A DNA stretch of 64,000 nucleotides from assembly GCF_006345805.1 (NCBI RefSeq), contig NC_043015.1, forward strand, positions 26,908,001-26,972,000, written 5' to 3'. Positions 783 to 64,000 of this stretch are shown here, in pieces (within the stretch, counting starts at the first letter, position 1; each line of letters starts with the position of its first letter). The stretch comes from Octopus sinensis (taxonomy: Eukaryota). A program made the translations under genes and the position numbers. The notes under the pieces were generated by a model. It worked only from the letters and a program-made list of their open reading frames with translations. It ran no database searches and was not told the DNA's origin.

Positions 783-1013
783 TATTTCATATAATTTGCC
801 ATTTAGGCATTTACAAAGAGGGGACAAACAAGGACAGACAAATATAAAGGGTGAAGTAGCTTAACACAGTTAAAATTTTCGAATGAAATTACGGATAAGA
901 TTATAAACAATGAGTTTTACGAAGACAATGTTTAAAAATATTATTAATGATCATGTCGAAGGACGGACACCCAGCCATCCGGGTAGAACCTTTACTTTCT
1001 GATCTGGTCACAC

Positions 1014-3165
1014 TTACCTGGTGCCAAACATACCCAACTTGCATGCCACAAACATATCTCGTGACAGACACCTCTTCTCCAGCCTGATTTTGCTACTGAG
1101 GTGGTAACTAAAAAAGTTAATCAACCGCTGGCCGGAGACAAAGGTGCCTGTCACTATAACTTTCGTACGCGTCTTCCATACTGTTTCTTTCAGTATGGCT
1201 ACTACACAGAAAAAACAAGCCTTTCTTTTCCTGTTAAGGAAAGGAGGCGGCGCAATCTCGATGATAGACTCAGCTGATAGATGTACTCTTCCCATCACTG
1301 ACAATAGTTGTTCAGCAAAAGCTATCAGTCCCGATAACTCCGGACACTCCACGAATGCGTGCAAGACGGTCTCCCTATCCTGCTCACATCGCGGACATGT
1401 CGGCGAGACGGCACTACCGTGCCTTGACAGCTTGTCGCGAACAGGTAAAGCCGCACGGAAACACTGCCAGGCCAGGGATTTCTGGTAATTATCCACATAC
1501 CCCGGCCCGAACGTCCTCCGGAACAGGTTGACCAACTGATTTTCATCGTAGCCCAAGGTCTCCCCCAAGGCGTCTTCGGACTTAACCTCCACTAACCCGC
1601 TATAGAAATCCGTGGTGGAACTCCTGTTGCCGGCGTTGCCCACCCGAGAGAGTAGCTGGAGCGCCTAACGGCACTCCAAATGCCATTCACTCAGTTTAGG
1701 TCTCCGCTTGATCCATGCACCGATGACCGTTAGGGATGTTAACTGGGGAAGGTAGAACCGGACGTGCGGTGACCACACCTGCTCTCCATCCAGGTAAAGC
1801 CAGAGGTGCCTCAACCTTAACGCGAGTTTTCGCATCCTCAGCCAAGGCATCCCTAGCCCACCCTTTAGCGGTTTCTGGCAGCAGACAGAGCGCTTTACAA
1901 GTGGCTTCCTCCTTTCCATAAAAATCGGAAAAGGATTCTCTCCAACTTGTTCAGCCACAATCGGGGCAAGGCACCACGGTCAGACGGTAGGTGATTACTG
2001 ATGCTATAAACATCTGCACCACCTCCGCCTTCCCTAGCAGGGATAACGCCCGCCCAGACCAGGTCTGGGTTAGAGCGGTCACCTTGTTGGCCACCTCACT
2101 CCAATTTTTCTCAATCTGGAGGTCTGGCTCGAACCAGACTCCGAGCAGCTTAACAGGACCTTCCGTCCAACGCCCTACGACGTTATTGGACGGCATCGGC
2201 TTGCCCCTCCAGGTGCCGAGTTGCAAACCGACCGACTTGTCCTTGTTAACCTTTGCTCCTGCCACCGCCTCGTAGCTTTTGATGGCCTCTTCCACCACTG
2301 GAAGCTGGCCTTCGTCTGCCACGATGATGGAGGTGTCATCCGCATACGCCGTAGCTCCTCTTCCACACCATAGATCATGCGGCGCGCCCCCTAGTGCCTC
2401 CAACTTCCGCAGCAAAGGCTCAAGAGTCAATACGTATAGGAGCGAGGACAGGGGACACCCTTGACGAACTGAACGCTCGATCGTGAACGGCTTCGAAAAG
2501 AAACCGTTCACCTTGACTAGAACTGTGGACAACTAAAACTAGACCTATCTCTAGTTCTTATCACTATCCTGTCTAGATAAGACTTGAACCTTCCGTCGCC
2601 ACTCATCCAGGTCCACTCTGGGACGTTCGGATGGTCAAGTCTGTAACGATCTGCCAGCTGAAACCGCTTAAGCAGATCCACGAGACGTGAGTTCACTTTC
2701 CTATAGATCGAGCCAACGCTATCGATGTGTACGTCAACGATAGCATTAAAGTCCCCTAATATCACTAAAGTCTTCGACGTCACGAGAAAGCCCTCTAGGC
2801 GCCGATAAAAATCAGTTTGGAAACAAGGTGCATAGAGTCCGATCAACCTGAAGGACTTACTGCTGTATGTCACATCAAGGACGACCAGCCCACCTTCTGG
2901 GTCTACATAGACTGTACTTGTCTGCAGAGCCAAGTCTTTACGGATCAGTACCACTACAGACCCCTCGCCCTCCGGTCTGGCCAGGAGACATGATTTTCTC
3001 GTAGCCATTCAGGAGAGGCGAGAAGGTTTGTAGGCTGTCCAGCTTGGTCTCTGTAGCAACCATCACATGTATATCATGTGATCTGATGTCGTCGAGGAAA
3101 CAAGCCTGCTTCCACTTCGAACTCAGACCACGCACATTTAAACAACAAAGGTTAAGAGAAGCCAT
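1014..3165 (-). pseudogene. ORF2 (APE endonuclease-RT-zinc finger), frameshifted, with a large internal deletion
   Basis: MASLNLCCLNVRGL, VATETK, LGDFN, SYLDRI (EN); VRQGCPLS, AYADD (RT); KGGLG; CPRC-x8-H-x4-C; split over five ORFs. Confidence 0.93.
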
Positions 3166-3442
3166 TACAAAAAGTAAAAGTTCTACTTACATTTCGTTGG
3201 AGAGGTTGGGGCCGACCTCACCACACATTGGTGGGCCCCTTCTTTTTCCTCCTTCTTCAGATAGTCCGGCAAGTTCGCGATATGCCGGATGGCGTTTGGT
3301 TGTCTGTCTTTTAATTGTTTGAACGTTGTTTCCGCGATCCACGCACATCTCTCGTTTCGATCTTTGTATTTGTTGTACAGTCTTGCTGACTGATGCGGAA
3401 CCACAATATCGTTTATGTATTTGTTTTGTGTGTCGAATTCAA

Positions 3443-4594
3443 TTAATATGAGTTCATTTTTTTTGTCTTCTTTTTCTGGGCCAGTTGAGCGGGATTTTTT
3501 TTTCGTGTCTGTGGTGTGTCTTTGTTTTTATTATTTTTTGTAGGGGATGTGGACGGGGATGATGCACGAATTCTTTTACGAACTGTTGTAAATCCCCCCT
3601 CTGATACCTCCATGGTATCGTCTGGGGTAGCAATAGTTTGTTCAGTAGGCGCCGCAGTTTTTAAGGGGGTGGGAGGTTTTAATAATGTAGGGGTTTGTGA
3701 GTGCGAGGGCTGGGTTTTTTCTTCAGTTTGTTTTGGGGTTGGCACCGTAACAGCGGGAGTGGGATTTTTTGTTTTTGTAGGGGTAGGTGAGTTTGCAAGG
3801 GTGGGGATTTTTTTATTATCTGAGGGGCCTGGTGTCTGCGGTTTCTTTTGCTTGTCTGGACAGTCTACACGAATGTGGCCCTTTTTGCCGCAGGCGTAAC
3901 AGGTGGGTTTTCGGCCTTCGACTTGTACCCTGAGGGCCACGTTCTCGCCCACGAGCACCCTCTCAGGAAGGAGCTGCAGGTCCTCCGGTGTTCCTTGAAT
4001 TATTATATTAATGTCTCGCCCAGGCCAATATAGAGGGGCAGAGCATGTTACTTGTAGTATTTTAATTTTGTCCGTCCTTTTATATAACAGGGCGGCCACT
4101 ACCTCTACCGGATCTACTTCCGGCGGGGCTTCTGCAATCCTGACCCGGGACGTCCTGCGTCCCCTATAGCTTGGGAAAAGTACCACCTCCTTGGTTTTTA
4201 GGGGGTTCACAGAATGCCCGCGGGCCACCTCTTCCCCCGAGAAGCGGACATCCACAGTGTCATATGCCCGTCCCCTGGCGACGTACACAATGTCCTTCCA
4301 AATCGGGGACAGGCATTTCTCAATGGTGTTTTTTTCAAAGTGTTTGAACCTTCTGCTTTGTGGACAGAAGGTTTTAAACACTACGGTCCGCTTCTCGGTC
4401 TCCACGATACTGGCGGAGGGTGATATTTTAACATCACCACCCTCCTCTTTCATTCTTTTAAATAGCTCGACGAGCTGATTGACATTGATGTCAATGCTCT
4501 CGGTAGCCACTGCGGCTACCGCAGAAAATTTTTTACTACAGTTAACATTGCTCTCCTCAAGAGCACTATTTTCGTGAATAATCTCAATAGACAT
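3443..4594 (-). CDS. ORF1 nucleic-acid-binding protein with CCHC zinc knuckle (element B)
   Basis: Long open frame (first ATG at 4594); CYACGKKGHIRVDC; Pro/Thr/Lys-rich tail; 3183-3404 may be its frameshifted C-terminus. Confidence 0.85.
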   Translation of the reverse strand: MSIEIIHENSALEESNVNCSKKFSAVAAVATESIDINVNQLVELFKRMKEEGGDVKISPSASIVETEKRTVVFKTFCPQSRRFKHFEKNTIEKCLSPIWKDIVYVARGRAYDTVDVRFSGEEVARGHSVNPLKTKEVVLFPSYRGRRTSRVRIAEAPPEVDPVEVVAALLYKRTDKIKILQVTCSAPLYWPGRDINIIIQGTPEDLQLLPERVLVGENVALRVQVEGRKPTCYACGKKGHIRVDCPDKQKKPQTPGPSDNKKIPTLANSPTPTKTKNPTPAVTVPTPKQTEEKTQPSHSQTPTLLKPPTPLKTAAPTEQTIATPDDTMEVSEGGFTTVRKRIRASSPSTSPTKNNKNKDTPQTRKKNPAQLAQKKKTKKMNSY

Positions 4595-4996
4595 TATTCT
4601 GTTGAAATTAGATAACACAAAAATTACGAATATTGGTTTCCCACAAAACTGGGAAACCTATAGAAAGTTTTTCTTCCAAAGCAGTTCAATAAGTGGTAAA
4701 AAGCAGTTCAAAAAATGTCATTTCCCACCCCCATTCGGGGGAGGGGCACGTAAATAGTCTGGCAAGACTATATATAGTCACGTAGATAAAAAAAAGCCAC
4801 AATGGCTAACAGTTCAACAGTAACAAATTATCCAATTATTCCCCGGTAAAACCAGAGAACAAGACAGTTCAACAACGTTCAAAAACAAATTTTCAGTAGT
4901 AAAATTCAACAATTAACAACACAGCAAAACTCTTACCGGGAAGAAAACGCGTCCAAACCGTAGTAAGGTAAGCAAAGTCACTCTTCAGTCAGTGAG

Positions 4997-5011: not shown

Positions 5012-6993
5012 TATTTCAACAATTTTGCCACTAGGGCAGCACACAGAGTAGCTACGGGCTGGACAAAGACATTAATGGATGATGGTGGTGGTGGATGAAG
5101 ATGATGGGAGAAGTCAAAAAGCGCCCGCCGACTCTTGCTTCTCTAAAACAATGTTCTTTTTTTTTCCAATAATTTTACAAAATTTCCAAAATTTTACAAA
5201 AATTCAAAAATTTCAAAACAAATTCCAAATTTTACAATTTACAATTTCAAAAGTTTTTCCAGAGGCAATAAACCTCTATCGCAATATAACCCAAATACAG
5301 GTTCACGTTACCTGACCGATGAACGCTCTTGCTTTAATGACGCAATCGTTCTTCGTCAGGCCCCCGCATATAGGTATAACTTGCAAGAGATCCTCCGGGA
5401 AATAATTCTCGATCCTGCACATATCATTTTCGAGTAGGACCTCCGCAGCCAGCTGCGAAGGCCACTCGGGATACTCCATGCAGGACCGAAGTCCCGCCCA
5501 TTGGTTTCTCTTCCTCATCTTACCTATTTCATTCTCTAGTGTACCTCCTTTGTGGAAGAGGACCACATAATATTTCTCCGGCCCCACAACCGCCGGAGGA
5601 CACATGGGAGACGCCGTCTGCGTGTTACAATCCGCTGGCGGCGTCCCGTTTCTTTTCTTTCTTTTTTTCTTTTTACCCTGGACCACGGGAGGTTGAGGTT
5701 CCGGCGTTGCACACGCCGGGTCCACTCTTTCTACCGTAGCTTCCGGGTCTTCTAGTGGGTCACCATTGTTTCCCACTTTTCGTTTTCTTGTTGAGGAAGC
5801 CACCGCTTCCTCGTTCTGTTTCTCTCCCTCCATTGGTGGGACAGGGAGAGGCTCTGATATTAACTTCTCCAGGATCCTACTCTGGTCCCTGGGGCAGTTC
5901 TTCTTAATGTGGCCGGTCTCCAAACACAGGTGACACTTGGGGGGACGTCCCTCAAGCATCACCGGATACTTGGACCCGGCCATCCTCAAAAAGTCCGGCA
6001 AAACCAGACTCTTGGCTGACTGGGTCCATAGAGTCAAAGTAGCCTTTGACCCCTCCCAATCAGCCGCAGGCTGCATTCTTACGTTCAGGATCTTGGCGCT
6101 ACCACCACTCAGACCCCGGCGGATAGAATCTTCCACCCACTCGGGCTCAAAGCCGGGTGGCAGGCCGCAGACCCATAATCTTATTAATTTTTCTCCCTTG
6201 TAGCTTGGGAGAAACAAAATCTCTTCGCCCTCAATGGGCTTGCTTGCGAAATTGCAAGCTGCTTTAGGGGAGTCAAAAAGCAACCAAATCGTTGCGTATT
6301 TGGCTCCCCGTTGAATGTATTTAACGGCTGGCATATAGTCTGCCAGCTCGTTCATAATAGTGGCTTTCGGAAAAACCATTATGGTGTTGAGTGACTTTGA
6401 ATACGTCCTCAACACCACGGTTTTGTCCTCCAGCTCCTTCAGGTAACCCTTCGGAGGTGTTAACTCCCATATGGTTAACTCCTTTTTTGCCATAACAAAA
6501 GTCCAATAAAAAACACAATGACAGAACAGAAAGACAGAGCAGAGAAAAGAACGAAGGAAGACAGTTCAAATAATGGCAACACTGTTCTGCAACTGGTAAT
6601 CCTCACGAAACAGGGTACTCCAGTTGCAGCACACTTGGTTCTCTGTGGTAAATCCAAGCACAATTGGTTCTCCGTGGTAAATCCAAGCGAACAAATTAAT
6701 TTTTGAGGAGGGCCTATGCCTCTCAAAACACACAATTCTCACTAAAAGGTGGGACAATAAATATGCCAACAGGCAGAACAAATACCTCCGAAGCAAAGTG
6801 AAGCCTGTTACGCGCAGAAAAGTGTTAACACTAATTAACATTAATGCCAAAAAGTATTAACGGCAAGCAACAAACCTCACTATGCTTCCAAAATATCCAA
6901 AATGTCCTACCTGTTTGCCGTAAATGTTCAATATTTCACGTTAACACGTGACATCTGAAGCAGCTCCAAAAAACACGTCTAACTCAGACGAAG
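5012..6993 (-). mobile_element. ORF1-only non-autonomous Tx1-derived element C (~1.98 kb)
   Basis: Single ORF, no EN/RT remnants; 3' terminus similar to element B; bounded by target copies. Confidence 0.88.
5303..6493 (-). CDS. Intact 396-aa ORF1-like protein with CCHC knuckle
   Basis: ATG start; LEGRPPKCHLCLETGHIKKNCP versus VEGRKPTCYACGKKGHIRVDCP in B; FLPSYKG versus LFPSYRG; basic KKKKRKKR stretch. Confidence 0.9.
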   Translation of the reverse strand: MAKKELTIWELTPPKGYLKELEDKTVVLRTYSKSLNTIMVFPKATIMNELADYMPAVKYIQRGAKYATIWLLFDSPKAACNFASKPIEGEEILFLPSYKGEKLIRLWVCGLPPGFEPEWVEDSIRRGLSGGSAKILNVRMQPAADWEGSKATLTLWTQSAKSLVLPDFLRMAGSKYPVMLEGRPPKCHLCLETGHIKKNCPRDQSRILEKLISEPLPVPPMEGEKQNEEAVASSTRKRKVGNNGDPLEDPEATVERVDPACATPEPQPPVVQGKKKKRKKRNGTPPADCNTQTASPMCPPAVVGPEKYYVVLFHKGGTLENEIGKMRKRNQWAGLRSCMEYPEWPSQLAAEVLLENDMCRIENYFPEDLLQVIPICGGLTKNDCVIKARAFIGQVT

Positions 6994-7032
6994 GTGAGAA
7001 AGCTACTTAGCACACAGCCACTCCTGCGCCTA
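6994..7032 (-). mobile_element. 5' head of tRNA-derived SINE (family 1), including the last target-site copy
   Basis: Reverse complement TAGGCGCAGGAGTGGCTGTGTGCTAAGTAGCTTTCTCAC; matches 37554-37590 (+) and 54407-54446 (-); box A-like TGGCTGTGTG. Confidence 0.85.
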
Positions 7033-33514: not shown

Positions 33515-33579
<65 letters not shown>

Positions 33580-33851
33580 CAACAATTGAGGGTAAAATTA
33601 ATTAATTAATCAATTTCACCAAGTATTCAGTATGCCATTTAAGGCGAATTAAAATTATTACATTATATAAAAGGGCTTAGTAAAATAAATTACTTTGCCG
33701 CATACTGAACTCATTAGAACTAGCAGCTAAAAAAACTTTTTTAAAACTATTTCTAATACTTAAAGAAAACCTCTCTCATATAGTGTTTGCTCAATTCAAC
33801 TCACGCAAATATGGGGGTAGAGACATTAAAAAATCAAGTGCAAAGGTTATT

Positions 33852-33903
33852 TGAGAACGTACGTTTCAAGATTAGTCAACACGACATTTCTATCATCAGC
33901 TCA
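33852..33903 (-). ncRNA. Type I hammerhead motif
   Basis: Reverse complement of 34474-34525. Confidence 0.7.
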
Positions 33904-34473
33904 GAACTCCCTGGTTTGGATTTGAAAACACTGAAAGTGGGAGCATACCCTCTCGGCCTCCTCTCGCTTCCGAAGATCTGCTCGTAACTAACAGTGCCAA
34001 CAAACCCAAAAATGCAAGCGAAGAATTTCTGCTCTCCCCTTTCCACCAGCGTGGGTTAAAAAAGTTAAAAAAGTTTTTAAAAAGTTTTTTTAGCTGCTAG
34101 TTCTAATGAGTTCAGTATGCGGCAAAGTAATTTATTTTACTAAGCCCTTTTATATAATGTAATAATTTGAATTCGCCTTAAATGGTCCCTTTGCATACTG
34201 AATACTTGGTGAAATTGATTAATTAATTAATTTTACCCTCAATTGTTGAAATTATAATTCATCTCTCTCTATATAATGCCGCGGACTTTACCGAAAAAAT
34301 CATAGTGTTTACTGATTTTAACCCACGCTGGTGGAAAGGGGAGAGCAGAAATTCTTCGCTTGCATTTTTGGGTTTGTTGGCACTGTTAGTTACGAGCAGA
34401 TCTTCGGAAGCGAGAGGAGGCCGAGAGGGTATGCTCCCACTTTCAGTGTTTTCAAATCCAAACCAGGGAGTTC

Positions 34474-34525
34474 TGAGCTGATGATAGAAATGTCGTGTTG
34501 ACTAATCTTGAAACGTACGTTCTCA
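34474..34525 (+). ncRNA. Type I hammerhead motif
   Basis: tgag-CTGATGA-taga..gtc..gac..tctt-GAAAC-GTAC-GTT-ctca; palindromic AACGTACGTT. Confidence 0.7.
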
Positions 34526-34716
34526 AATACCTTTGCACTTGATTTTTTAATGTCTCTACCCCCATATTTGCGTGAGTTGAATTGAGCAAACACTATATGA
34601 GAGAGGTTTTCTTTAAGTATTAGAAATAGTTTTAAAAAAGTTTTTTTAGCTGCTAGTTCTAATGAGTTCAGTATGCGGCAAAGTAATTTATTTTACTAAG
34701 CCCTTTTATATAATGT

Positions 34717-34760
<44 letters not shown>

Positions 34761-34768
34761 TACACACA

Positions 34769-34818
<50 letters not shown>

Positions 34819-34819
<1 letters not shown>

Positions 34820-35060
34820 CTTATTATAAAAGGCAGATTTTATCTGCCTCCCTTTGGGAGTTATACAAATCTACAATATAGGATTTCTTCAATTACAATT
34901 TACCTTACATTTTTAAGAGTACAATGCATCGCGTCATGCCAGGTCCAGTTTTTAAAATTTAAACTCCAATTAAGCAAAATTTACAGAAAACTCACATTCT
35001 GGTGTGTGTATCAAATGCTTTTCTTAGTCTGGTTTACACCCACGCAAACGCACACACACA
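34819..35060 (+). mobile_element. Helitron-like 5' segment, second copy
   Basis: Near-identical to 32008-32256. Confidence 0.6.
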
Positions 35061-35281
35061 GTGGGCAACGAATAAAGTGAAACTAGATGTAATATTTGTT
35101 TCTCTCTATCACGCTGATAGATACATGAGTAAAATGTATGGGAAGCTAACACATAAGTGTGAGTGAAAATGTTCTTGGAAGAGAGTAAATAGCCAGAGAT
35201 AGTGATTTGAGGAAGACTTTTCATTAAATAACCGTAGTGGCTTGTGTTAGTAATAAAGTAAACATACACTCATACATACAT

Positions 35282-35314
<33 letters not shown>

Positions 35315-35381
35315 TACATACATACATACACACACACATACATACATACACACATACATACATACATATACATACATACAT

Positions 35382-35412
<31 letters not shown>

Positions 35413-35868
35413 TACACACACACACAGTATTGAAGCTTGAGAACAATCAGATACATTTGCAACACATCAGTTGAAAATATTATTGTTCACACACATACAT
35501 ATACATATATACATACAGACAGACAGACAGATAGACACACACACACACACACATGATCCAGCATGGCCACAACCTCAAGGCTGAAACATATAAAAGAATA
35601 ACAGAATATAAATGTGTGCATCTGTGTGAGAGAGAGAGAGTGTGTGTGTATATGTATGTATGTATGTAGTATGTATGTATGTATATATATATAATAATGC
35701 GGTTTTTTCAACAGCTTGAACTAAAAGTCAGAGGGGAATGGGATAAACTACTTATATTAACTTGCTATAAAAGCAGGTAGTAATTTTATCTTGTCCTTAT
35801 TCATAGTGCAAGTTTTGAAGAGTGCATTTCGATTTTAACAGCTATTTTTTTCAAAGCTATATTGGAAC

Positions 35869-36123
35869 AGCCTAGAAGACGAGCCTCATCCTGAAAGATC
35901 TGTAGAACTCGACAAGGACATCCTGAAAACCCTGGTGGAACAAAATCTCATCGTAACTGTTGAGGAACTAGCAGAGAAGCTTGGATTTGGTCATTCAACC
36001 ATTCATTGAGACCTGTGTGCTATCGGAAAAGTCAGCAAATTGGGTCAATGGGTTCCTCACGAACTTTCCGAGTCTAATTGCATGCAGAGAGTGAATGTAT
36101 GCTTTTCTTTGCTGTCACATCTC
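35869..36123 (+). pseudogene. Mariner transposase fragment
   Basis: LEDEPHPERS...TVEELAEKLG...LGQWVPHEL (WVPHEL motif). Confidence 0.85.
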
Positions 36124-36144
36124 AACACTACTGCGCTATGTATA

Positions 36145-36780
36145 TCTGTATATATAAAACTGTAGTTGTGTGAGTGTCTGTCCCCTTCGATTTAGATTCC
36201 TAACTACTCCCACATTTTGCGGTGCAGTTTAACCAAATTCGGGTAGCTTATAGTCGTGATTCATATCGAGCCCGTCTGAGTATTAGCGCGCGTCTACGAT
36301 GAGTCTACGATTTTAAAAATAATTTAACATCATTTTTTATTCCATTTTAATGCATAATTTTTCGTGTGTCGATGGCGGCGGAGTTGGCGTCCACGCTCAC
36401 ACCTGCACCTGTGGGGAAGGGAGTGTAAGGAAATCAACGTCGTAATGCGTTGTCAAGGAGACCAGCGTTCTTTTAGAACAACGACTTCATGGCTTGAAGA
36501 CACCAAAACAGAAATGGCTAAGAAAGCGTCTACATGAGTCTACGATTTAAAAAAAATTTACCATCGTTTTTTTTCCATTTTAATGCATTTTTTCGCTATT
36601 ATATAAGGGAAGTAACTCTCTAAAAATGTCTACGATGAGTCAACGATTTTTCTAAAAATTTACCATCATATTTTTTCCATTTTTAATGCATTTTTTGCTA
36701 TTTTTTGGCTATAACTCTCTAAAAATGCTTATATAGTTATTTCCCTTACAAACCCGAGCAACGCCGGGCGATACTGCTAG
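36145..36780 (+). mobile_element. Non-autonomous Helitron
   Basis: 5' TC; 3' hairpin CCCGAGCAACGCCGGG then CTAG followed by T. Confidence 0.85.
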
Positions 36781-37552: not shown

Positions 37553-37900
37553 TAGGTGCAGGTGTGGCTGTGTGGTAACAAACTTGGTTCCAAAACACAT
37601 GGTCCTCAGTTCAGTCCCACTGTGTGGTAACTTGGCATGTGTCCTCTGCTATAGCCTCAGACCTACCAGAGCCTTGGCAGTGGATTTTGTAGACAGAAAC
37701 TGAAAGAAAGCAATTGTATATATATATGTATGTATATATATAAGTCTATGTGTGTGTTTCTCCCTCATTACAGCTTCACAACTGGTGTTCGCTTATTTAC
37801 ATCCCCATAACTTACTGGTTTCACAAGAAGAAACTGATAGAATAAGTACCAGGCTTATCAAAATAAAAAAAAGCACTAGGCAGTGTCTCATAAATTTGTT
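37553..37900 (+). mobile_element. Uninterrupted, diverged SINE family 1 copy
   Basis: GGTGCAGGTGTGGCTGTGTGGTAA...GTTCAGTCCCAC...GAAACTGAAAGAA; target site mutated (AACAAACTTGGTTCC). Confidence 0.8.
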
Positions 37901-40539: not shown

Positions 40540-41265
40540 CACTTGCTGAGACACACCCTGCGTCATGGGGCGAGTGAAAGATAAGAGATGTTACAATTTG
40601 ACTGAAAGTTTGGGGAGAGGATAGCAGCGAAATAACTTCATGTAATGCAACTCAAACATTGAAATGGATAGGGCTTTTCTAAGGATGTGGGCAGTACTTG
40701 TTAGCACAATCTTTTGGAGTGCTCTGAGACATGGTTCTCCTGGGATCTTAGCTATGTGTTTCTGACATACCTTTTTCACTATACCTAGGACACCTACAAT
40801 AACAGGAAGAGTTCTCATTTTAAGATGACACATCTCTATTTCAATTTCCAAGTCCTTATATTTACTTAATTTGTCAAATACCTTTACAGATATATTTTTA
40901 TCAGTGAGAAAACTTACATTTATTAGTGTACAAGTATTTTATTTACTCTTTAATAATTATGTCTGGTCGATTAGCCTGGATCGTTCTGTCAGTGTTGACT
41001 GGAAAATCTCAGAGGATAGTGACATTGTTACCTTTAATGACTGGCTCGGGGTGATGTTCATACCAGTAAGCAGGAGTGTTGGTTTTGTAGTGTTTACATA
41101 GTTTCCAATGTAAATACTCTCTTACCCTATCGTACCGAGTTTTGTATTCGTTCGGTGTCAGCACAGGACATCCCGTGACGAAATGTTCTATTGTTTCGTC
41201 AAATGTGTTGCAGATTCTGCATTTAGTGTAAGAACCGATTTGAATGTTAGCCTGGTAGTTTTTTG
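40540..41265 (-). mobile_element. R4/Dong-like 3' portion, second family
   Basis: CRICNTFDETIEHFVTGC knuckle; TDRTIQANRPDII; LPVIVGVLG; TAHILRKAL. Confidence 0.8.
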
Positions 41266-41281
41266 CATTATTGTTAGTGAA

Positions 41282-41490
41282 AAGGCGGCGTCCTGGCAGA
41301 ATCGCTAGCGCGCGGGACGAAATACTTAGCGGTATTTGGTCTGCTGCTACGTTCTGAGTTCAAATTCCGTCCAGGTCGATTTTACCTTTCATCCTTTCTG
41401 GGTCGATAAAATAAGTACCTGTTGAACACTGGGTTCGATGTAATCGACTCATCCCCTCCCCCAAAATTACTGCCCTAGTGGCGAAATTTA
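41282..41490 (+). mobile_element. SINE family 2
   Basis: AAGGCGGCGTCCTGGCAGAATCGCTAGC head; shared core; (TTA)n tail. Confidence 0.8.
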
Positions 41491-41678
41491 CCATTATTAT
41501 TACTATTATTATTATTTTATTATTATTATTATTATTATTCAGTAGTTTTATTTTTATAGCGTGCTTTCACTTCACTACCGAGCGCAGCTCTGTGTGCCTT
41601 GGGTATGTGCTGTGATTTGTTGTGATGCTCTGATGGTTATTGTATGGAAAGTGTTCTGCGTAGGATGTGTGCAGTGCC

Positions 41679-41752
<74 letters not shown>

Positions 41753-42872
41753 GCCTTTGCACTGCTTCTAACGCTGGAGATGTACTACGGTATCAGCTGT
41801 TCACTACCAGTGAACTAAGGTAACACCTCTTATTTTTCGAGCACCTTCCCGAGCATTCGAGCGGTTCCATGCAGTGCTGTTTCTGCAAGTGATCCACCCT
41901 TATTGCAGCCCCTATTTATTCCATGTACTTCTCAATAGTTTTACTCACTGTTCCCAGGGCTCCGACAATTATTGGTACTACTTCAACCTTTCTCAGCGAT
42001 CACAACTGCTTAACCTCCCAAGTTAATCTGTCGTATCTATTGACTTGTCTTTCTTCCTTATCGCATACCTTGTTGTCAGCTGGGCATTGCTTTGTTTCTC
42101 AACTAAGACTATGTCTGGCTTCGTATTCTCTATCTCATGGTCGCACTGAATCATAAAATCCCACAGGATCTTTGCATTATCATTTTCGATGATACCATCG
42201 GGTTTGTGGTCGTACCAATTTTTTTGTTTTGTCAAGTCCATACTTGTTGCAAAGTGTCCAATGAACAAGCCTGGTTATATTGTCGTGGCGACTCTTATAT
42301 TCCTTCTAGGATAGTGGCGTACATTGGCTGGTAATATGCCATACGGTTTCACCATTTCATCTACAAATTCTGCACTTATCACTTTCTGGTGTGTTGTCTA
42401 TTCTGTATTTTATGTAGTTTGTAAAGAATAAAAAGTTTTGATTGGTACAACAATGCACTATAATACAGAAAATGAGCTATATATCTGTTGTAATTGAGTC
42501 ATCCATAATCTGATATGACATTTCGGAATAATATTCTTTCTTCAGATATTCTTAGATGTAGTCGCTGCTATAATCGGTTTTCTAATGGCTTCTCTTTTTT
42601 TGTGTGTAAGCATCTCAGCAGTGGTCTCACGATGCTCTTTCCGGAATTCTTCATGAGAAGTGTGTGAGGTCGGCCATGTCTCAATCTCGTGTGTGCTGGT
42701 ACATCCGTAGCGCTGCTTTTAAGTTCTAAGTTCTAAGTTTTGTAGTTTGATCTTAACGCTTGCTGTTGGACAGCACAGATTATAGCCTCTGTTTCCGGTT
42801 TTAAATCACTTTTAGTCATCCACAGCCATCTTTTTCCTCTGTCTGTCTTATCTTCAACAGTTCTATGAATGT
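41753..42872 (-). mobile_element. R4/Dong 3' portion (same family as 18174-19636), interrupted by an insertion
   Basis: Reverse-complement match to ~18840-19636; (TAA)n tail at 41679-41752. Confidence 0.88.
42422..42740 (+). mobile_element. 319-bp nested retroposon fragment with (TAAGTTC)n tail and 9-bp TSD
   Basis: TGTAGTTTG at 42413-42421 and 42741-42749. Confidence 0.65.
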
Positions 42873-43095
<223 letters not shown>

Positions 43096-43278
43096 AAAAT
43101 TTTAAGCCCCTGGGTATGATGGAAAGTGTCAGCTGTCCATAGCTAGCAGACTAAGGTGACATATTTTCACTGGTCATGTCTCAAGAGCTCTACGCAGAAT
43201 TCTTGCAGTTCCAAGCAATGATGATTTCTGTAGATGTTCTATCCCTACATTTGTATTATCCTTTTATCATCATCATCG

Positions 43279-48404: not shown

Positions 48405-50377
48405 CCGTCCGGTACAATAGAAGATAATTACCCAATGTACTGTGCAGTAGGATTGATACCTGAAATTTTCTAGTTACACTGCGAGCTTCTCTAAAACCCC
48501 TTAGTCATTCCTACGCCTTCGTTATCTAAATTATTCTCCCATTTTCTCCTTTACGGCGGTTTAACATGAAATTCTCTCGTTTCTATCTTCCTTTTAGTCT
48601 TTTCTTTCTTTTCTCTCATTAACCCTCCCCGCCAATATATTACATCATTTGTTCCCCTTTTTGCTAACTTACTTTCTCTCTGTTACTTTCGTCCTTATTT
48701 TATATTTGTTACTCTACTTCAAAAGAGAAAAAGTTAATTCTTATGAGTCTGTAGCGACTTGTATTAATTTCCCATTATATTTTTCTAGATATATTTCGTA
48801 ATCTTCCAGTATTTATTTAAGAATTTCTGACTTTTCGAATCATAAAATTCTCCACGTCTTTGTATTTGCAGCAAATATCAATTTTCTATACCGGATTTTC
48901 GGTGATGAATTCTAAATACAGTCACCAATATCATTATTGTTTATTCCTGAAGTTAAATCTGCCTCCATCCTTCCGGGGACGAACTTCCATGGTCGATGAA
49001 TAAAAATATCCGTCATATACTGGGATCGAGATATCGTCTATACAGCTACACTCAAAATGGTTGGTTATGAGTCCACAACAGAGGCCATTATTATTGTTGT
49101 TCTCTTGACTAATCTAATCCAGATTATTCAATCGGTAACCAGAGAGAAGATTGTAATTCTCGGCACAAGCATATCTGTCAGGGTAAGAAATTAAGTTCGT
49201 AACCTCGTCGTTTCGGGATCAATCCAAATGCACTGCACGTTGAGAAACTGTCTACTTTTATAGCTCCAGGCTGACCGATGCCTTGTGGGAGAATTTGGTA
49301 AAGGTAGAAGGAAACTGTAATGAGGCTTGTCACACATATGCGTGTGTGCGCGCATGCATATTTATGCTAGCATTTATCTCCCAGCACTTGACAAGTGATG
49401 TTAGCCCGAACATGTTCCCCTAACTTAGCGGTTCGGTTAAAAGACCCAATAAAATAAACCCAGGCTTAAAATAATTACTGAAATTAATTTATTCAACTAA
49501 AACTGTTCAAGACTGGGCTCCAGCGTGGCCGCATTCCAATGACTATGACAAAATTATAAAATAATTAATACATTATTACTGTTGGAATATTGATTCCTAT
49601 CATTGAAATTCCTGTCTTGAATCTCTTCTATTGTAGAGGTAGAAATGCACGTATTGAGGAAAATGTGACTCATATTTCTTATAGGTTAAGAGACGAGGCG
49701 AAGATTTCCTTGTTTTCTCAGTTATATGAAGATCCAGTTAATATTAACTAACGACGCACTCTAAATGTTTAGCTTATATGACTGGCTTACATTGAAGCAC
49801 AGAAGCGTTGGTCAACAGAGAATAAATATCCCCTTCATCAGAGCGAAACACTCCAGAATTTCTTGGACACTTAACTTATTGTTATTTGGGTGTTAACGAA
49901 TGTTAACAACCAAATTAAGAGAATGAGCAAAAGATAATTCATTTGATTCAAATGAGCGTATTGACGAGGTAAGCTAGACAAGAAGTCAATGAATAACTTT
50001 TAATCAAATCTAGTCAAATCTAGACAACTTTGAAATTTATATCAGAATTGTGCATACATGAATTGAGGAAAAGGGAAATATCTTAGAGGCAAAGAGATTT
50101 AATATGAGAATTGGTTTAATGCATTGTGTGCCATTAGAGGAATCTGCTCTGTTGCAAACTTTTAGATTTCGTCTTTGATATGAGGATAATTTCTTACTTA
50201 AGTCCAACACTCTTGTGAAATTCTAAAATAGCATTCACTTCAGGATTCATTATTCTGATTAAGCCATATTTCTTTTAAAAAGTACGGTAGTAATAATGTT
50301 GAAGTTTCAGTCTGATAAACGTCCTCGGTGAAGCTCGGCCCAGCAACTTGTCAGCATTTAATATACAAGGATTGGCA

Positions 50378-51192: not shown

Positions 51193-51659
51193 ACTTGGGA
51201 GCGCTGTTGGATAGAAATTCCTTCAGCTGGAAATCTCGATATGTCAGTATTCGGAGATATAAGAGTTCCATAACTACATTTCTATTATATATATATATAT
51301 ATATACATATATATATTTATTTATTTATTGCGTGTGTGTGTGTGTGTGCGTGTACATTTATTAATGTCTATATATGCCTATACGCGTCAATCTTTGTGAA
51401 CTAAGCTGCACATTCGTAGAACTTGTATAGTTTTTACCAAGATCCTGGAACATGTTTGCTCCAAGCCACACCCCCAGCCAAGACAGTTCCTACGTAAAAA
51501 GAGGGAAGAATCCGATGGTAACATATATTAATAACGAGTTACAGAGCTGCCGCAAACCTTGCAGTGAAAGAAATGTAGTTATGGAACTCTTATATCTCCG
51601 AATACTGACATATCGAGATTTCCAGCTGAAGGAATTTCTATCCAACAGCGCTCCCAAGT
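51193..51659. repeat. 91-bp inverted repeat pair
   Basis: 51193-51283 is the reverse complement of 51569-51659; identical peptide MELLYLRILTYRDFQLKEFLSNSAPK in opposite-strand ORFs. Confidence 0.9.
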
Positions 51660-52228: not shown

Positions 52229-52371
52229 TACGACGGTCTTCTTTCAGTTTCCGTCTACCAAATCTACCCACAAGGCTTTGGTCGGTCCGAGGCTATAGTA
52301 GGAGAAACTTGCCAAAGGTGCCACGCAGTAGGACTGATCCCAGAACCATGTGGTTGGTAAGCAAGCTACTT
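52229..52371 (-). mobile_element. SINE family 1, 3' part (box B and body), including TSD 52357-52371
   Basis: Reverse strand AAGTAGCTTGCTTACCAACCACATGGTTCTGGGATCAGTCC...GGAAACTGAAAGAAGACCGTCG. Confidence 0.88.
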
Positions 52372-54406
52372 TATTTCATAATATTCGTCATGTAGACAGT
52401 ACAAAGATTGTGTAGCTTTGCGGGCCGGACAAACACATTAATGAATGAAATTGAAATAAAATGAATAAATGAGAGACGAAACCCAACACTCATGATTGGA
52501 TTTTTCTCGAAAACATATTTTCTTTTTTTTTTAAATCATAATGAGGTTTCAAACCTCTTACAAGAAGGAGGCACTAAAACCTCTTACTTAACACGTTTGT
52601 TTTAATACACACAAATGATGTAATAAACCACTACAAATAATACAATAAGATGAGGTTTCAAACCCTCTAACGAGGCCTTTTCGCTTCCTACTCATTGATA
52701 TATCCATCGATATATTCCTCATTATTTTCAATGCCGCTTGAGTTCCTGTATCCTTCCATTTCACATGCCTCACTCATGTAGGACATGTAAGTCGTGTAAG
52801 GGCCACCCGGCCATATGCGACACTCTTTCCCAAATCCTTTAAGCCTTTCTCACAAGGGAAACCTTATGACCTCCACAGCTATCTGCGGAGGCCATTCAGG
52901 ACCTCGTGTGAATGACATATCTACTATCTCTTTATGTTCTTCTACTATTTTTCCACCTCCACACCCTTGTAGAAAAAGATAATTAATTCATCATCTTTAA
53001 AAGTGGGGGTCGTTTCTTCCACCGCGGTGACACAACTTCGGGACATGCAGACGGCACATCATCTCCCCGCTGCGATGACCCGTTCTTCTTTCTTTTTTTC
53101 TCTTTTCTTCCTGACTTCGGGAGAGTGGAGCTCTTCCGCTTTGTCCGGAGTCTCTCCCCCACCTCCCGAAGTCTTAGGGTCCTTCGGCAGGCAACTATTG
53201 TTACCCGCCTACTTCCTTTTTTCACATCCACCTCTCCCTTTGACCGGGTAGGGGAGGTGACAGTTCCGGGTCCTGAGAGCAGTTCTTTTTAATGTGGCCT
53301 GGCTGAAGGCACGAGTGGCACTTGGGGGGACGTCCCTCAAGTATCGCCGAATACCTGCAGCCAGCCATTTAAAAAAATCTGGAAAAACCAGATCTGTTGC
53401 GGCCGTCGGGGTCTACAGGGTCAAAATCGCTTTTGACCCTTCCCAATCGAACGCTGGCAATACCCTTACATTTAAGAGCCTGGACCCGCTATCCCCCAGT
53501 CCCCGTCGGATGGTATCTTCAATCCAACCCGCGTCGGTGTCTGGGGGTAACCTACATACCCAGGCTCTTATTAATTTTCTCCCGCACTACGACGAGACGA
53601 ACAGAATTTTGTTGCACGCTAATGGCTGACTCGCAAATGTTTGAGCCTTTTCCCGGTCGTCAAACAGCAACCATACGGTTTCATGTTTGACACCTCGGGA
53701 TATGTATTTCACTGAGGACAAATAGTCTTTCGGTTCATTTTCTATAACTGGTTTTGGGAAGACGGTGATGGAATCAAGAACTTTAGAATAAGTTCTAACC
53801 ACCACCGTCCTCTCCTCCATATCTGTTAACCACTGCTTAGATGGGTTAATTTCCCACTCTAAGACAGAGTTCTTCTTTTTAAGTTCCTTCTCTGCCATGT
53901 CCCAAAAAACAGTTAAAAAGTAGTTCAAAAATCAGTCCGCAAAAAAATTAAAACCGAATAAAAATAGAATTAAAACAAAATAAAAGAGAAGGAAAGGAAA
54001 CTGAAGTTCAAATAATGAAAAGAATGAACCAAAATTTAGAAAGAAAGAAAAAATAGAAGGAGAAAATAAAAGAAAAACCTCACAAATAGAACAGACAGGG
54101 AATCCTTTGTATAATACTCCAACAGGTAATCCAGTAGTGTCGGTTATTCTTGTACTCCAGGTAAATTTCGGCTTTTTCTAGTGAGATACGCCCACTAGAA
54201 TTTACAAATTATTTGGCGAAAAAAAGCCACACCAAAAATTCTCAATTCCCCGTTATGGTGATGAGAACACAATATTTTTGCTCGCTATAGCGAGCCATAA
54301 TTGACAATTTTTCTTTTTGTTCTTTTTTCTATTCACGGAGCCAAAACTCACGTCTTCTCACTGTAACAGTCCAGACCAACTAGTGTTGCATTCTGGGTAA
54401 CCGGAA
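52372..54406 (-). mobile_element. ORF1-only Tx1-derived element D (2035 bp) inserted in the SINE head
   Basis: Perfect 15-bp TSD GTAAGCAAGCTACTT; ORF homologous to C; shared 3' end. Confidence 0.9.
52780..53898 (-). pseudogene. Frameshifted ORF1 of element D
   Basis: MAEKEL..EERTVVVRTYSK..VFPK; DWEGSKA; EGRPPKCHSCLQPGHIKKNC; PEWPPQIAVEV resembles PEWPSQLAAEV in C. Confidence 0.85.
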
Positions 54407-54446
54407 GTAAGCAAGCTACTTAATACACTGCCACTTCTGCACCTAT
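54407..54446 (-). mobile_element. SINE family 1, 5' head, including TSD 54407-54421
   Basis: Reverse strand TAGGTGCAGAAGTGGCAGTGTATTAAGTAGCTTGCTTAC. Confidence 0.85.
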
Positions 54447-57639: not shown

Positions 57640-57780
57640 ATATTTATTCGCAAAGCATTGGTCGGCTCGAGGCAATAGCAGAAGACACCTTGCTTTGCAG
57701 TGTTTTGCGGTGATCCGGAACCTAAAACTAGTATGCTTCCAAGTGAGCTTCTTAATCACGACCCATACCGACAGCCATAC
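57640..57780 (-). mobile_element. Diverged SINE family 1-related copy
   Basis: TTGGTCGGCTCGAGGCAATAGCAGAAGACAC resembles 52278-52310. Confidence 0.6.
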
Positions 57781-60349: not shown

Positions 60350-60953
60350 CGTTACATGGCAGACCCTAGCCGTGCACCCACCCCCAGAGAAAACGCTCCG
60401 ATAGGTGCTGTAGTTCACGCCGCCCTTCCCTTTAAACGTCAAGACCAAAGTAGGTAACATCTTTAGCTTAGTTGATATACACTTAGATTCAACAAAATAT
60501 TTAATAGATATACCCTGAGATATACCTTTAGATATACCTTTAGCTATGCACCAAGTGTAAAATGGATTTTAGTAAGTAGACTACACCCGAGGCAGAGGCA
60601 TGATGCTCTTCCAGGGGTAACACGGAGACAGTTTAATACGAGGCAGAGGTAACAGCCACAGGACCCAATGGACAACCGAGTGTGCGGAAGTATGTGGGGG
60701 TAACAGAAAGACCTTTCAGTACTCGATATAACAACCACACGTACTTCTTCAACATCCCAGAGAGATGTAACACCACAACCCTACCGAAGCACGTTTGATC
60801 TTTAAAAGAGTACAGAATAAAGTGGAAGATACTGGAGAAATGCAGACCGTACTTCAATAACAGCAGGAAGTGCAGGTTATACCTGGCTGAGAAGGGAGCA
60901 ATTTTAAAGGGTACCCAACACCCGGATGTATCAATACATAGGTGTATGTAATA
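60350..60953. mobile_element. Possible solo LTR
   Basis: ~600-bp complex segment between TA tracts with near-inverted termini CGTTACAT...ATGTAATA and an internal AATAAA. Confidence 0.3.
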
Positions 60954-60961
60954 TATATATA

Positions 60962-61020
<59 letters not shown>

Positions 61021-61023
<3 letters not shown>

Positions 61024-64000
61024 TGGCTCGGCTTCGCGAACGAAGATCAGGAAGTCTGTCCACGTAGCGTGCATGCACGTTCATGACTGACAAGTCCAAT
61101 ATAGGAAAGGCAGGTCAGTGAGCAGTGTCCACAGACGAAGGTAACATCCGGTGTGGTGTCAGAGGCGGCTCGTACCTTCCTCCTGCGTCTCTTGTCTTTA
61201 AGCGCGTTTCTTCTTTGTTCCTCAAACTTGCTGACTGCGTTGAAGATCGTGTGGCACCAGACATCACAGTCTGCAGCCAGGCCTGACCAGCATTGGTGGT
61301 TAATATGACATGCAGTTAGAGACTGCTTGAGGCAGTCTTTGTAGCGCTTCCTCGGTGGCCGGTGGAGAGTTCACGGTTCTCCATTCTGGAGACATGCCCA
61401 GCCCATCGGAGGTGTGACTTCAGTAGCATGGCTTCAATGCTGGGGATCTTGGCCCACCCAAAGAATTCAATGTATGTTGAGGATGGTGCTGACACATCGT
61501 TGGTGGAAGCGCTCGAGGAGACGGATGTGACTGCAGTAAGTGATCCAGGTCTCTGAGCCATAGAGAAGAGTGGTGAGAACCACGGCCCTGTAGACACTGA
61601 TCTTTGTTTTGTTCTTCAGGCTATTATTGTGCCAAACACGTTTGTACATTCTGCCAAAGGACCTATTTGCCTTAGAGAGTCTATTTTCAATTTCTTTGTC
61701 GATTCTTGCATCGAATGAGATGATGCAGCCCAGGTATGTAAACTGCTGAGTTGATTTCAGTTCGGTACCGCAGATAGTGATGTGGGGTGGGCGGTAATCC
61801 TCTTGGAGTGTAGGTTGGTGAAGTACCTCCGTCTTCTTGAGGCTGACCTCCAGGCCAAGGAGCCTCGAGGCGTCTGCAAAGCAGGGCGTAATGCGCTGCA
61901 GAGCTCGCTCTGCTTGGGCGACAAGGATAGCGTCGTCTGCGAAGAGAAGGTCTCGAATCAGCCTCTCCTGGGTCTTGGTGTGGGCTTGGAGGCGCCGTAG
62001 ATTGAAGAGGCTGCCATCCAGACGATACCTAGCATACACCCCATCCTCATCCTCCATATCTTCAGTTGCATGCTTGATCATCATGCTGAAGAAGATGCTG
62101 AAGAGAGTCGGTGCCAGGACACAACCCTGCTTCATGTCGTTGGAGATGGGGAAGGGCTCCGACAGGTCACCATTGAGTCTGACCTAACCACGCTGATTCT
62201 CGTGCAGCAGGATCACCATCTGTAGAAACTTGGTGGGACAGCCAAGTCGTTCCAGGATGAGCCATAGTCCTGTCCTGCTCACTGTGTCAAATGCTTTTGT
62301 GAGGTCGAGAAAAGTAGCATAGAGTCCCCTGTTTTGTTCTCGGCACTTCTCCTGGAGTTGGCGCAGGACGAACAACCATATTCGTTGTGCCTTTGTTGGC
62401 TCTGAATCCACACTGGCTCCCGGGGAGGTTTTCTTCAGCAATGGTTGGTACTAGCCTGTTGAACAGGATCCTGGCAAGTTCTTTGCCGGCGATGGAGAGT
62501 AGGGTGATTCCCCGGTAGTTGGAGCAGTCAGACTTTTCGCCCTTGTTCTTGTACAGGGTTATGATGACGGCGTCACGAAGATCCCGTGGCAGCTTGCTCT
62601 GCTACCAGCAGCAGACAAGAAAATCATGGTGCTTGTCATGGAGCATCGGACCTCCATTCTTCCCGATTTCTGGTGGGATGCCGTCAACTCCTGCTGCTTT
62701 GCGACTCTTGAATTGTCCCATGGCTTCAATCGTTTCTTTGAGGGTGGGTGGTTCGTTGAGCTCCTCTTTGAGTGGAAGGTGAGGAATGCGAAGGATGCCA
62801 GCGTCCTGTACGGTACGGTTAGCATTGAAGAGGCTTTGGAAGTGCTCGGACCAGCGAGCGAGAATGGAGGTGTTATTGATGAGAAGGTCCTGTCTATCTG
62901 AACTGCGCAGGGGACTCTGGACCAGGTGGGTGGGAGCTTACACTGCTTTCAGAGCCTCATAGAAGCCTCTATAGTCTCCGAGGTCAGCGCACAGCTGGGT
63001 TCTCCACGCCAAGTGGTCCCGGCACACGTTCTGTATTTCTCTGAGTTTTCGCTGTAGAGTGCTGCATGTGCGTCGAAAGGTAGTTTTCTTTACAGGACAG
63101 GCTGGTTGTGCGAGGTGGGCCTGATGAGCTGCCCTCTTCCTTGCTAGTAATTCCTGGATCTCCTTGTCATTTTCATCGAACCAGTCCTTGTTTTTCTTCT
63201 TTGTGTTCCCGAGAACTTCCATAGATGTCTTAAGCATGGCTGATTTCAGGTTCTCCCACAAGGTGTCTGGGGTGGTGTCATCAGTGCAGGGGGATTCGTC
63301 TAGTCTTTGCTGCAGGTTTGCTTGAAACTTGATTTTCAGTTCCTCCCGGAACAAGCTGTCGACATCGAGTTTCTTTGCGTGGTTACCTTTCTTCTTGGGT
63401 TTGGGTTTGAACTGCAGTTTGAGCTTGCAGCAAACAAGGATATGGTCGGTGTGGCACTCGTGTGTAGAACGTCTTTCAGGTCCCGCTGGCGTACAAGCAC
63501 ATAGTCACGTAGATGCCAATGTTTGGACTGGGGATGCACCAAGTTGTTTTTAGACGGTCTTTCTGTTGGAAGATTGTGTTGGTAATAGCAAATCGGTGCT
63601 CTGTGCAGAACTCGAGCAGGAGGTGCCCGTTGTCATTACAGCCACCAATGACGTGTCTTCCAAAGACTCCTTTCCAAGCCTCCGAGTCCCTCCCAACTCT
63701 TGCGTTGAAGTCGCCAAGGATCAGGACCTTGTCGTTTGCAGGGGTGTTATTCAAGCGTCTGCACAGATCAAAATAGCAGCTGCCTTTGTCCACAGGATCT
63801 GCCAGTAGAGTTGGAGCATAAACACTGAAGTGCGTGAGATGTTGTTTGCTCTCCAGTGGTAGGCGCATGGATATGATGCGGTCGAGTGGCCCGTGGCTAA
63901 CATTTCCAGTTTGAAGGTGATTTTGTAGGACTCACGTTTTTCAGATGATGGTTTTCCGGACCAGAAGAGGGTGTAGCCAGCGTCACGTTCTTTGAAGCTG
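61021..64000 (-). mobile_element. RTE-clade LINE, degenerate; 5' part beyond the window
   Basis: SVYAPT, LGDFNARVG (EN); FLDLTKAFDTV, KQGCVLAPTLF, LLFADD, FTYLG, LLYGSETW, LRWAGHV; many frameshifts. Confidence 0.95.

What the first reader, a model, noticed from the sequence alone, without database searches (positions are those of the whole stretch)
52229..54446. Independent second insertion at the identical SINE nucleotide with a perfect 15-bp TSD
Seen: removing 52372-54406 and one copy of GTAAGCAAGCTACTT restores a continuous SINE collinear with the uninterrupted copy at 37553, whose target site is mutated. Position and orientation match the left-hand stack 45 kb away, although element D is clearly diverged from C. 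The site is pseudo-palindromic (TAAGTA-GCT-TGCTTA). The element ends at AATAAA with no poly(A) tail, its last A's overlapping the target. Inference: sequence-specific endonuclease cleavage with microhomology-primed TPRT.
Basis: partly seen in the sequence, partly recalled or inferred. Interest (0 to 1): 0.8.

Follow-up and report, generated by a model that had tools for sequence, protein, structure and literature searches.

The report
LINE family that targets one SINE
This 2-kb insert is one copy of an octopod retrotransposon lineage whose members, over a thousand times genome-wide, sit at the same nucleotide of a very abundant SINE; it encodes only ORF1 and was likely moved by the sequence-specific enzyme of a full-length relative, making it a transposon that parasitises another transposon.

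Summary
Observation confirmed and extended. D (52372-54406, minus strand) lies between two exact 15-bp repeats inside a tRNA-type SINE, one base past its A box. It is a 2-kb ORF1-only (HAL1-like) element, not a broken LINE. Genome-wide, 48 of 53 distinct D-family 3' ends and 36 of 36 visible 3' ends of its autonomous relative B (APE + RT + zinc finger) abut the same site; the exact junction occurs 1,137 times (control 3) against 103,159 unfilled-type sites. Copies truncated at different points still follow the SINE head, and flanks are unrelated, so insertions are independent. Off-target copies begin at AAGT, two with 15-bp duplications. The palindrome is dispensable. New detail: full-length B brings its own copy of the target's last six bases (9 of 10 informative junctions), likely to anneal the 5' junction; all families share a covarying 3' hairpin. 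Sister lineages use other targets, one (TC)n like Kibi. Works like target-specific Tx1/R1 elements; Tx1 membership by phylogeny was not testable. A SINE as target was not found in nine literature searches; Repbase was not available. New variant of a known kind.

The parts
52229..52356 (-). 3' part (body, with B box) of the interrupted SINE
   Evidence: 89% to an intact empty SINE copy from L149; collinear with 37553 copy
52357..52371 (-). 3' copy of the 15-bp target; bottom-strand nick inferred at the 52371/52372 border
   Evidence: exact repeat; invariant 3' junction in 48 of 53 D copies
52372..54406 (-). Element D, 2,035 bp, ORF1-only (HAL1-like) non-autonomous retrotransposon
   Evidence: 10 full-length genomic copies of 1.85-2.09 kb with the same ends; ORF1 homology, no ORF2 homology
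52386..52398 (-). 3' stem-loop (4-bp stem, 5-nt loop) shared by all families at this site; likely ORF2p recognition signal
   Evidence: 93% of cells paired, two pairs changed on both sides, 0 of 500 shuffles
52370..52375 (-). AATAAA straddling the element end and the target; no poly(A)
   Evidence: sequence; same in all copies seen
52688..53898 (-). ORF1, broken by stops and frameshifts; CCHC zinc knuckle at about 53279-53320
   Evidence: translation; tblastn 40% to C ORF1, 28% to B ORF1; C and B ORF1 hit zf-CCHC
53899..54406 (-). 5' UTR of D; no Rfam ribozyme above threshold
54407..54421 (-). 5' copy of the 15-bp target
   Evidence: exact repeat; 20 exact head-target-D junctions genome-wide, all GCTTAC
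54422..54444 (-). SINE head with degenerate A box
   Evidence: 87% to intact SINE positions 1-38; A box at SINE 12-22, insertion after 23, B box 55-65
6994..7031 (-). Left stack: SINE head and 5' junction of C
5012..6993 (-). Element C, ORF1-only, intact 419-aa ORF1, young (97% to L120)
783..4996 (-). Element B, autonomous type (ORF1, APE, RT, zf-RVT) with an internal deletion; target copies at 4997-5011 and 768-782
   Evidence: near-intact relative L141
1..767 (-). 5' part of element A, ORF1-only; it ends about 1.23 kb left of the window on the target and SINE body
37553..37712 (+). Uninterrupted older SINE copy, 5 of 15 target bases changed

Best explanation
D is an independent insertion of an ORF1-only non-autonomous retrotransposon that sits, like its autonomous L1/Tx1-type relatives, at one fixed nucleotide just past the A box of an abundant SINE, and it was likely moved in trans by their ORF2 protein through sequence-specific nicking and target-primed reverse transcription. 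Shown: the fixed 3' junction, independence, ORF content, 15-bp duplications, tandem stacks. Inferred steps: (1) ORF2p binds the RNA by the shared 3' stem-loop; (2) the APE domain nicks the bottom strand at ACTT/ACC, reading mainly the 9 bases AAGTAGCTT; (3) the T-rich primer pairs with the RNA 3' end, either with AA only or with read-through target sequence, so no poly(A) is copied; (4) the top strand is cut about 15 nt downstream; (5) in full-length B-type copies the cDNA end carries a target look-alike that anneals to the top strand in either of two registers and replaces target positions 10-15; (6) the upstream duplication is reused, so stacks probably grow beside the SINE head. Insertion separates the A and B boxes and would silence that SINE copy.
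For: D 3' ends found without using the target: 48 of 53 on target (43 SINE body, 5 stacked), 5 off target. B copies picked by RT similarity: 36 of 36 visible 3' ends on target, of 38 loci. Junction count 1,137 vs 3; chance per insertion about 4e-5. Five B-like copies truncated at five different points all follow the SINE head. Off-target copies start at AAGT/AGT; L023 and L025 have 15-bp duplications of unique DNA. Private target variants shared at both ends in L106, L109, L190. ORF2 has APE, RT and zf-RVT above Pfam cut-offs and the L1-EN catalytic residues. 5' look-alike: 9 of 9 B copies whose 3' site is not GCTAAC have GCTAAC at the 5' junction, and 11 of 29 carry an extra base there, a form seen in only 16 empty SINEs against 67,475 normal ones. 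3' hairpin covaries. Sister lineages with 72-76% RT but 56-58% EN identity use other sites.
Against: No biochemical test: EN specificity, trans-mobilisation, nick positions and RNA ends are inferred. L190, skipped by the pattern, keeps its target variant at both ends, so the look-alike count is 9 of 10. For D itself an element-borne 5' part could not be shown (4 unshared 3' variants vs 1 unshared 5' variant, old copies). Truncated copies have variable duplications (0 to 15 bp). The ORF2 lineage that moved D is older than B and was not pinned down. Stack polarity rests on nearest-neighbour identities in a partial sample. Hairpin covariation comes from about two events.
Confidence: 0.85

Rival explanations
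1. The endonuclease is only loosely specific (L1-like TT/A nicking) and the site is selected mainly by base-pairing of read-through RNA (target sequence after AAUAAA) with the nicked primer strand, or by tethering to RNA polymerase III factors on the SINE A box.
For: AATAAA lies at the very end, and cleavage normally falls 10-30 nt downstream (established knowledge), so the RNA should contain target sequence; off-target sites share only AAGT(AG); the same is proposed for R1 (PMC2718515, section 11); the nick is one base from the A box.
Against: Off-target copies carry no extra SINE bases at the 3' junction; stacked sites lack a nearby B box yet are used; EN and its recognition loop diverge between lineages with different targets; Tx1L-EN is itself specific (PMC1950540 passages). 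Not exclusive of the best explanation.
Confidence: 0.25
2. The pseudo-palindrome forms a hairpin or cruciform that the endonuclease cuts.
For: The site can fold (-7.6 kcal/mol for 36 nt).
Against: Right arm (positions 10-15) varies freely among used sites, 14 of 174 cells against 1 of 261 for positions 1-9; off-target sites have no palindrome; the fold is expected from a tRNA-like head.
Confidence: 0.04
3. The SINE and the element travel together (composite element) or D and the left stack come from a segmental duplication.
For: Same site and orientation 45 kb apart.
Against: Flanks do not align; D and C are 68% alike; differently truncated copies each have head and body; SINE bodies beside young B copies vary 4.2% against 0.8-1.0% for the element ends; copies lie on many chromosomes.
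Confidence: 0.01
4. D is a single decayed autonomous LINE that lost ORF2 after insertion.
For: The window's B copy has an internal deletion.
Against: Ten dispersed copies share D's 5' end, 3' end and 1.85-2.09-kb length; 785 first-look candidates; several other ORF1-only families exist at the same site.
Confidence: 0.01

Closest known systems
Tx1-clade target-specific LINEs: Tx1L (into Tx1D piggyBac), Tx1-Mar (into Mariner-N4_AMi), Keno (U2), Kibi (TC)n, Koshi, Dewa (PMC4494074 main text; PMC3706591 passages)
   Same: L1-type ORF1 + APE-RT, target inside a multicopy repeat, non-autonomous partners share the target, tandem copies sandwich a TSD; a sister lineage here sits in (TC)n like Kibi.
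   Different: Target is a SINE head at single-base precision (91-100% on site, against the 20% rule and two broad regions for Tx1-Mar); partners are ORF1-coding, not snRNA SINEs. Clade membership not tested by tree.
R1 (28S rDNA; PMC2718515 section 11)
   Same: APE element, invariant 3' junction, 14-bp TSD, tandem arrays grown at the 5' TSD, off-target sites sharing 4-9 bp with the target.
   Different: R1 clade, essential host gene as target; ancestral R1 carries no target sequence at its 5' end, and the melanogaster type carries upstream sequence and makes a deletion, whereas B's look-alike lies inside the duplicated bases.
R2 with upstream target sequence on its RNA (PMC3774820 abstract)
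   Same: Target-like 5' end proposed to anneal and prime second-strand synthesis.
   Different: R2 uses a restriction-like nuclease and an HDV ribozyme; no ribozyme hit here.
HAL1 (half-L1; PMC5753468 passage; Bao and Jurka 2010 not held)
   Same: Non-autonomous L1 derivative encoding only ORF1.
   Different: Here many such families are strictly site-specific and lack poly(A); HAL1 is described from mammals.
Dada DNA transposons (PMC3706591, PMC8869645 passages)
   Same: Insert at or beside the A box of tRNA genes.
   Different: DNA transposons, real tRNA genes; the word SINE does not occur in either main text.

Membership tests
L1 group non-LTR retrotransposon (element B) | ORF1 with zinc knuckle, ORF2 with N-terminal APE, RT and C-terminal zinc finger | tested here: met
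   Pfam above cut-off for all four; best solved relative human L1 ORF2p, E 5e-41, R2 1e-6
L1 group non-LTR retrotransposon (element B) | TPRT hallmarks: fixed 3' end, variable 5' truncation, TSD | tested here: met
Tx1 clade | RT groups with Tx1L/Keno/Kibi in a tree | not testable with these tools
   no named Tx1 reference was returned; tree holds only unnamed or hypothetical proteins
Tx1 clade | Target specificity for a multicopy repeat (over 20% of flanks in PMC4494074) | tested here: met
   36 of 36 B and 48 of 53 D 3' ends; sister lineage in (TC)n
Tx1 clade | Tx1L-like EN recognition loop | tested here: inconclusive
   DG tip aligns with the RDGH of the LTx graft but the loop has L1's length of 9
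Tx1 clade | EN nicks its own target in vitro | not testable with these tools
   needs biochemistry
HAL1-type non-autonomous LINE (D, C, A) | ORF1 only, no ORF2, amplified as a family | tested here: met
   no ORF2 tblastn hit in D, C or A; ten same-length D copies
HAL1-type non-autonomous LINE (D, C, A) | ORF1 and 3' end related to the autonomous partner | tested here: met
   26-28% ORF1 identity to B; shared 3' hairpin and end
tRNA-derived SINE (target) | A and B boxes at tRNA spacing, high copy number | tested here: met
   A box 10 of 11, B box 11 of 11, 43 bases apart; 103,159 exact 16-mers
tRNA-derived SINE (target) | Head recognisable as a tRNA | tested here: not met
   no Rfam tRNA hit on an intact copy, ARAGORN none in window; origin from tRNA is inferred from the boxes
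Published octopus SINEs (Ohshima and Okada 1994; names OK/OR1 recalled, OR2 seen) | Sequence identity to the published family | not tested
   no reference sequence available

The most novel reading that the evidence does not exclude
A LINE lineage and a swarm of ORF1-only hitch-hikers have specialised on the promoter of the genome's commonest SINE, cutting it between its A and B boxes, and the LINE keeps a short copy of the target at its own 5' end that tracks the SINE's evolution (GCTTAC in old copies, GCTAAC in young ones, matching the newer SINE variant) and guides seamless 5' joining inside the duplication: a transposon-on-transposon co-evolution with a homology-guided second-strand step not described for L1-group elements.
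Probability: 0.45. Interest if true: 0.75.

Novelty: new variant of a known kind. Interest (0 to 1): 0.6.

Why it matters
It adds SINEs to the list of safe havens used by sequence-specific LINEs and gives an unusually large natural data set (over 1,100 exact junctions among over 100,000 target copies of known variants) for reading nuclease specificity and the poorly understood 5'-junction step of TPRT. Near-intact young copies and sister lineages with different targets but 72-76% identical RT make a direct domain- or loop-swap test of how APE specificity evolves. It also shows ORF1-only elements thriving with strict targeting, and explains nested repeats that automated octopus annotations would fragment.

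Tried and rejected
Segmental duplication and composite SINE-LINE unit: rejected. Palindrome requirement: rejected. Preference of B for the GCTAAC SINE variant: not supported, 20 of 29 targets against about 62 of the first 100 empty sites listed (hand count); D's 0 of 43 is better read as D predating that variant. Extra T more frequent at mismatched targets: 5 of 9 vs 6 of 20, p 0.24, not significant. Tx1 placement: two homolog searches, the Atlas and cluster look-up gave no named Tx1. RNA ends: no RNA holder listed on record; contigs of 4 runs cover B and one from another organism label spans the head-B junction, but contigs cannot show RNA starts or poly(A) sites. Ribozyme at 5' ends: nothing above threshold. 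Rfam/ARAGORN tRNA match for the SINE: none. Bacterial promoter scan irrelevant. One search had a mis-sized gap and was not used. Earlier scan findings: none. An orthologous empty site for D was not sought.

Full report
Observation. The 15-mer occurs twice in the window, at 52357 and 54407, with no extension. Taking out the insert and one copy leaves a SINE collinear with the copy at 37553 (122 of 157 columns), which has 5 of 15 target bases changed. Read on the minus strand the locus is SINE head, target, element D, target, SINE body. With the neighbouring 10 kb the left stack reads head, T, C, T, B, T, A, T, body, same site and orientation. D and C are 68% alike over 550 bp and their outer flanks give no hit.

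What D is. D holds one broken ORF with a CCHC knuckle, 40% identical to C's intact ORF1 and 28% to B's, and no ORF2 homology; the same holds for C and A. Its 3' end gave 785 first-look candidates, 40 scored; ten full-length copies of 1.85-2.09 kb share both ends. It is therefore an amplified ORF1-only family, the HAL1 design (PMC5753468, passage). B is the autonomous type: L141 has a 466-aa ORF1 and a 1,130-aa ORF2 with APE, RT and zf-RVT above Pfam cut-offs, closest among solved structures to human L1 ORF2p, with the EN catalytic residues aligned.

Target specificity. A 20-base pattern of D's 3' end alone has 114 matches, control 0; all 30 examined abut the target, 27 with SINE body and 3 on another element. 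Pooling 59 loci gives 53 distinct ends: the script classed 42 SINE, 5 target plus other, 6 off; by eye L039 is SINE and L041 stacked, giving 43, 5 and 5. Of 38 B loci chosen by RT similarity, 36 show a 3' end and all 36 are on target. The exact junction occurs 1,137 times (control 3) against 103,159 unfilled-type sites, about 1% occupancy, shared by many subfamilies. The site is after SINE base 23, one base past the A box and 31 before the B box; neither Rfam nor ARAGORN recognises the head as a tRNA.

Independence. Five B-like copies cut at five different points each follow the SINE head, with duplications from 15 bp to none or a small deletion; D copies as short as 36 bp do the same. SINE bodies beside young B copies vary 4.2%, element ends 0.8-1.0%. 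Private target variants appear at both ends in L106, L109 and L190.

Cleavage geometry (inferred). The five off-target D copies start at AAGT (4) or AGT (1); L023 and L025 have 15-bp duplications of unique DNA, L002 at least 13, L015 8, L003 unresolved. So the first nick falls before AAGT and the second about 15 nt on. The element ends at AATA, the target supplying AA. Since cleavage normally lies 10-30 nt past AAUAAA (established knowledge), the RNA probably runs into the target and could pair with the primer over more than 2 nt, as proposed for R1 (PMC2718515, section 11). No RNA data could test this.

The 5' look-alike. Of 37 B loci, 6 were skipped by the patterns, 31 read, 29 with SINE body at the 3' side. 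In all 9 whose 3' site is not GCTAAC the 5' junction still ends GCTAAC; 11 of 29 have an extra base there, 10 of them T, a form found in 16 empty SINEs against 67,475 normal ones (patterns differ in length). L190, skipped, keeps its variant at both ends, so 9 of 10. The simplest reading is that B RNA starts with a target look-alike whose cDNA anneals to the cut top strand in one of two registers. C and other families show their own drifted versions at this place. Some older B-lineage copies carry GCTTAC (window B, L206, L207, L160), others at 93-95% already GCTAAC (L155, L156); D, 88-91% to its neighbours, sits in 0 of 43 GCTAAC sites although these are about 62 of the first 100 perfect empty sites (hand count). 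This suggests the look-alike followed a SINE subfamily shift, on few copies. For D itself the point is open: both copies match the commonest SINE, and old copies are too decayed. R2 offers the precedent (PMC3774820, abstract), with a ribozyme not seen here.

Trans recognition and stacks. In 28 diverse 3' ends a 4-bp stem 14 nt before the end is paired in 93% of cells, with two pairs changed on both sides, above all 500 shuffles and all slid controls; related rows inflate this, and it reflects about two events. It fits stringent 3' recognition (PMC3747384, passage). In stacks a young element lies upstream of old D (L201, 97% vs 87%), elements upstream of young B are young where a relative was sampled, and none of 9 element-B junctions puts old D upstream of young B: growth beside the head, as for R1, is favoured but not proven.

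Relatives. Twenty loci at 76-80% RT identity do not use this site. One lineage lies in (TC)n at both ends, like Kibi; one has long terminal direct repeats; one uses varied sites with about 15-bp duplications and stacks. All end AATAAAG without poly(A). EN identity to B is 56-58% against 72-76% for RT, and the recognition loop differs. The four SINE-targeting RTs form one clade (100/99) within a genome-wide radiation (98/97).

Comparison and novelty. Tx1-clade LINEs targeting other transposons, with partners and tandem copies, are known (PMC4494074, main text parts 1-4 of 5, supplements not seen), as is EN specificity of Tx1L (PMC1950540, passages). It works like these; membership by RT tree could not be tested. 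L1-Tx1 families are listed for octopus without any target (PMC13282606, main text parts 1-2 of 3, supplement and Zenodo library not seen; PMC8967140, passages). Nine searches found no LINE specific for a SINE site and no target-specific ORF1-only family; Christensen 2000 and Bao and Jurka 2010 were not held, and Repbase, where such targets are often first noted, could not be read. Also seen in passages only: PMC3706591, PMC8869645, PMC4758252, PMC7265360. Verdict: real, new variant of a known kind, interest 0.6.

Noticed in passing
L161, L162, L171, L175, L177, L178: Young sister LINE lineage inserted in (TC)n at both ends, Kibi-like, some in tandem; long ORF2 frames (1,117-1,138 aa).
   Followed up: partly
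L165:1449-7518, L166, L179: Sister lineage with a roughly 140-bp direct repeat at both ends, the 3' copy lying about 100 bp past AATAAAG and ending at (AT)n; L179 has an inverted piece of the 3' extension at its 5' end. Possibly fixed read-through supplying a promoter.
   Followed up: partly
L163, L164, L167-L170, L172, L174, L180: Sister lineage with about 15-bp duplications at varied sites, frequent head-to-tail stacks at 5.2-6.0 kb spacing.
   Followed up: partly
window 60633-63931 (minus): Degenerate second LINE type (APE and RT fragments with LFADD motif, RTE-like by eye).
   Followed up: no
window 18843-19636 and 40591-43101: Two diverged copies (80%) of another repeat with GIY-YIG/Penelope- or R4-like C-terminal fragments by eye.
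   Followed up: no
window 32022-36780: Cluster of local direct and inverted duplications (94-100%) around a piggyBac-like fragment at 32328-32690.
   Followed up: no
window 28254-28578; 51193-51283 with 51569-51659: A 325-bp imperfect palindrome (90%) and a perfect 91-bp inverted repeat just left of the finding.
   Followed up: no
window 49201-49320, 48413-48464, 57648-57693: Further old fragments of the target SINE family (72-83%).
   Followed up: no
L098:104-171: tRNA-like sequence above the Rfam gathering score (33.5 bits), unrelated to the target SINE.
   Followed up: no
G000:C1:114496024-114496109: Two B 3' junctions in opposite orientation 60 bp apart; inversion or assembly artefact.
   Followed up: no
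L147:3938 and 5330: Contigs of all four public runs carry single-base insertions here, so intact-frame B copies probably exist in other individuals or species.
   Followed up: no
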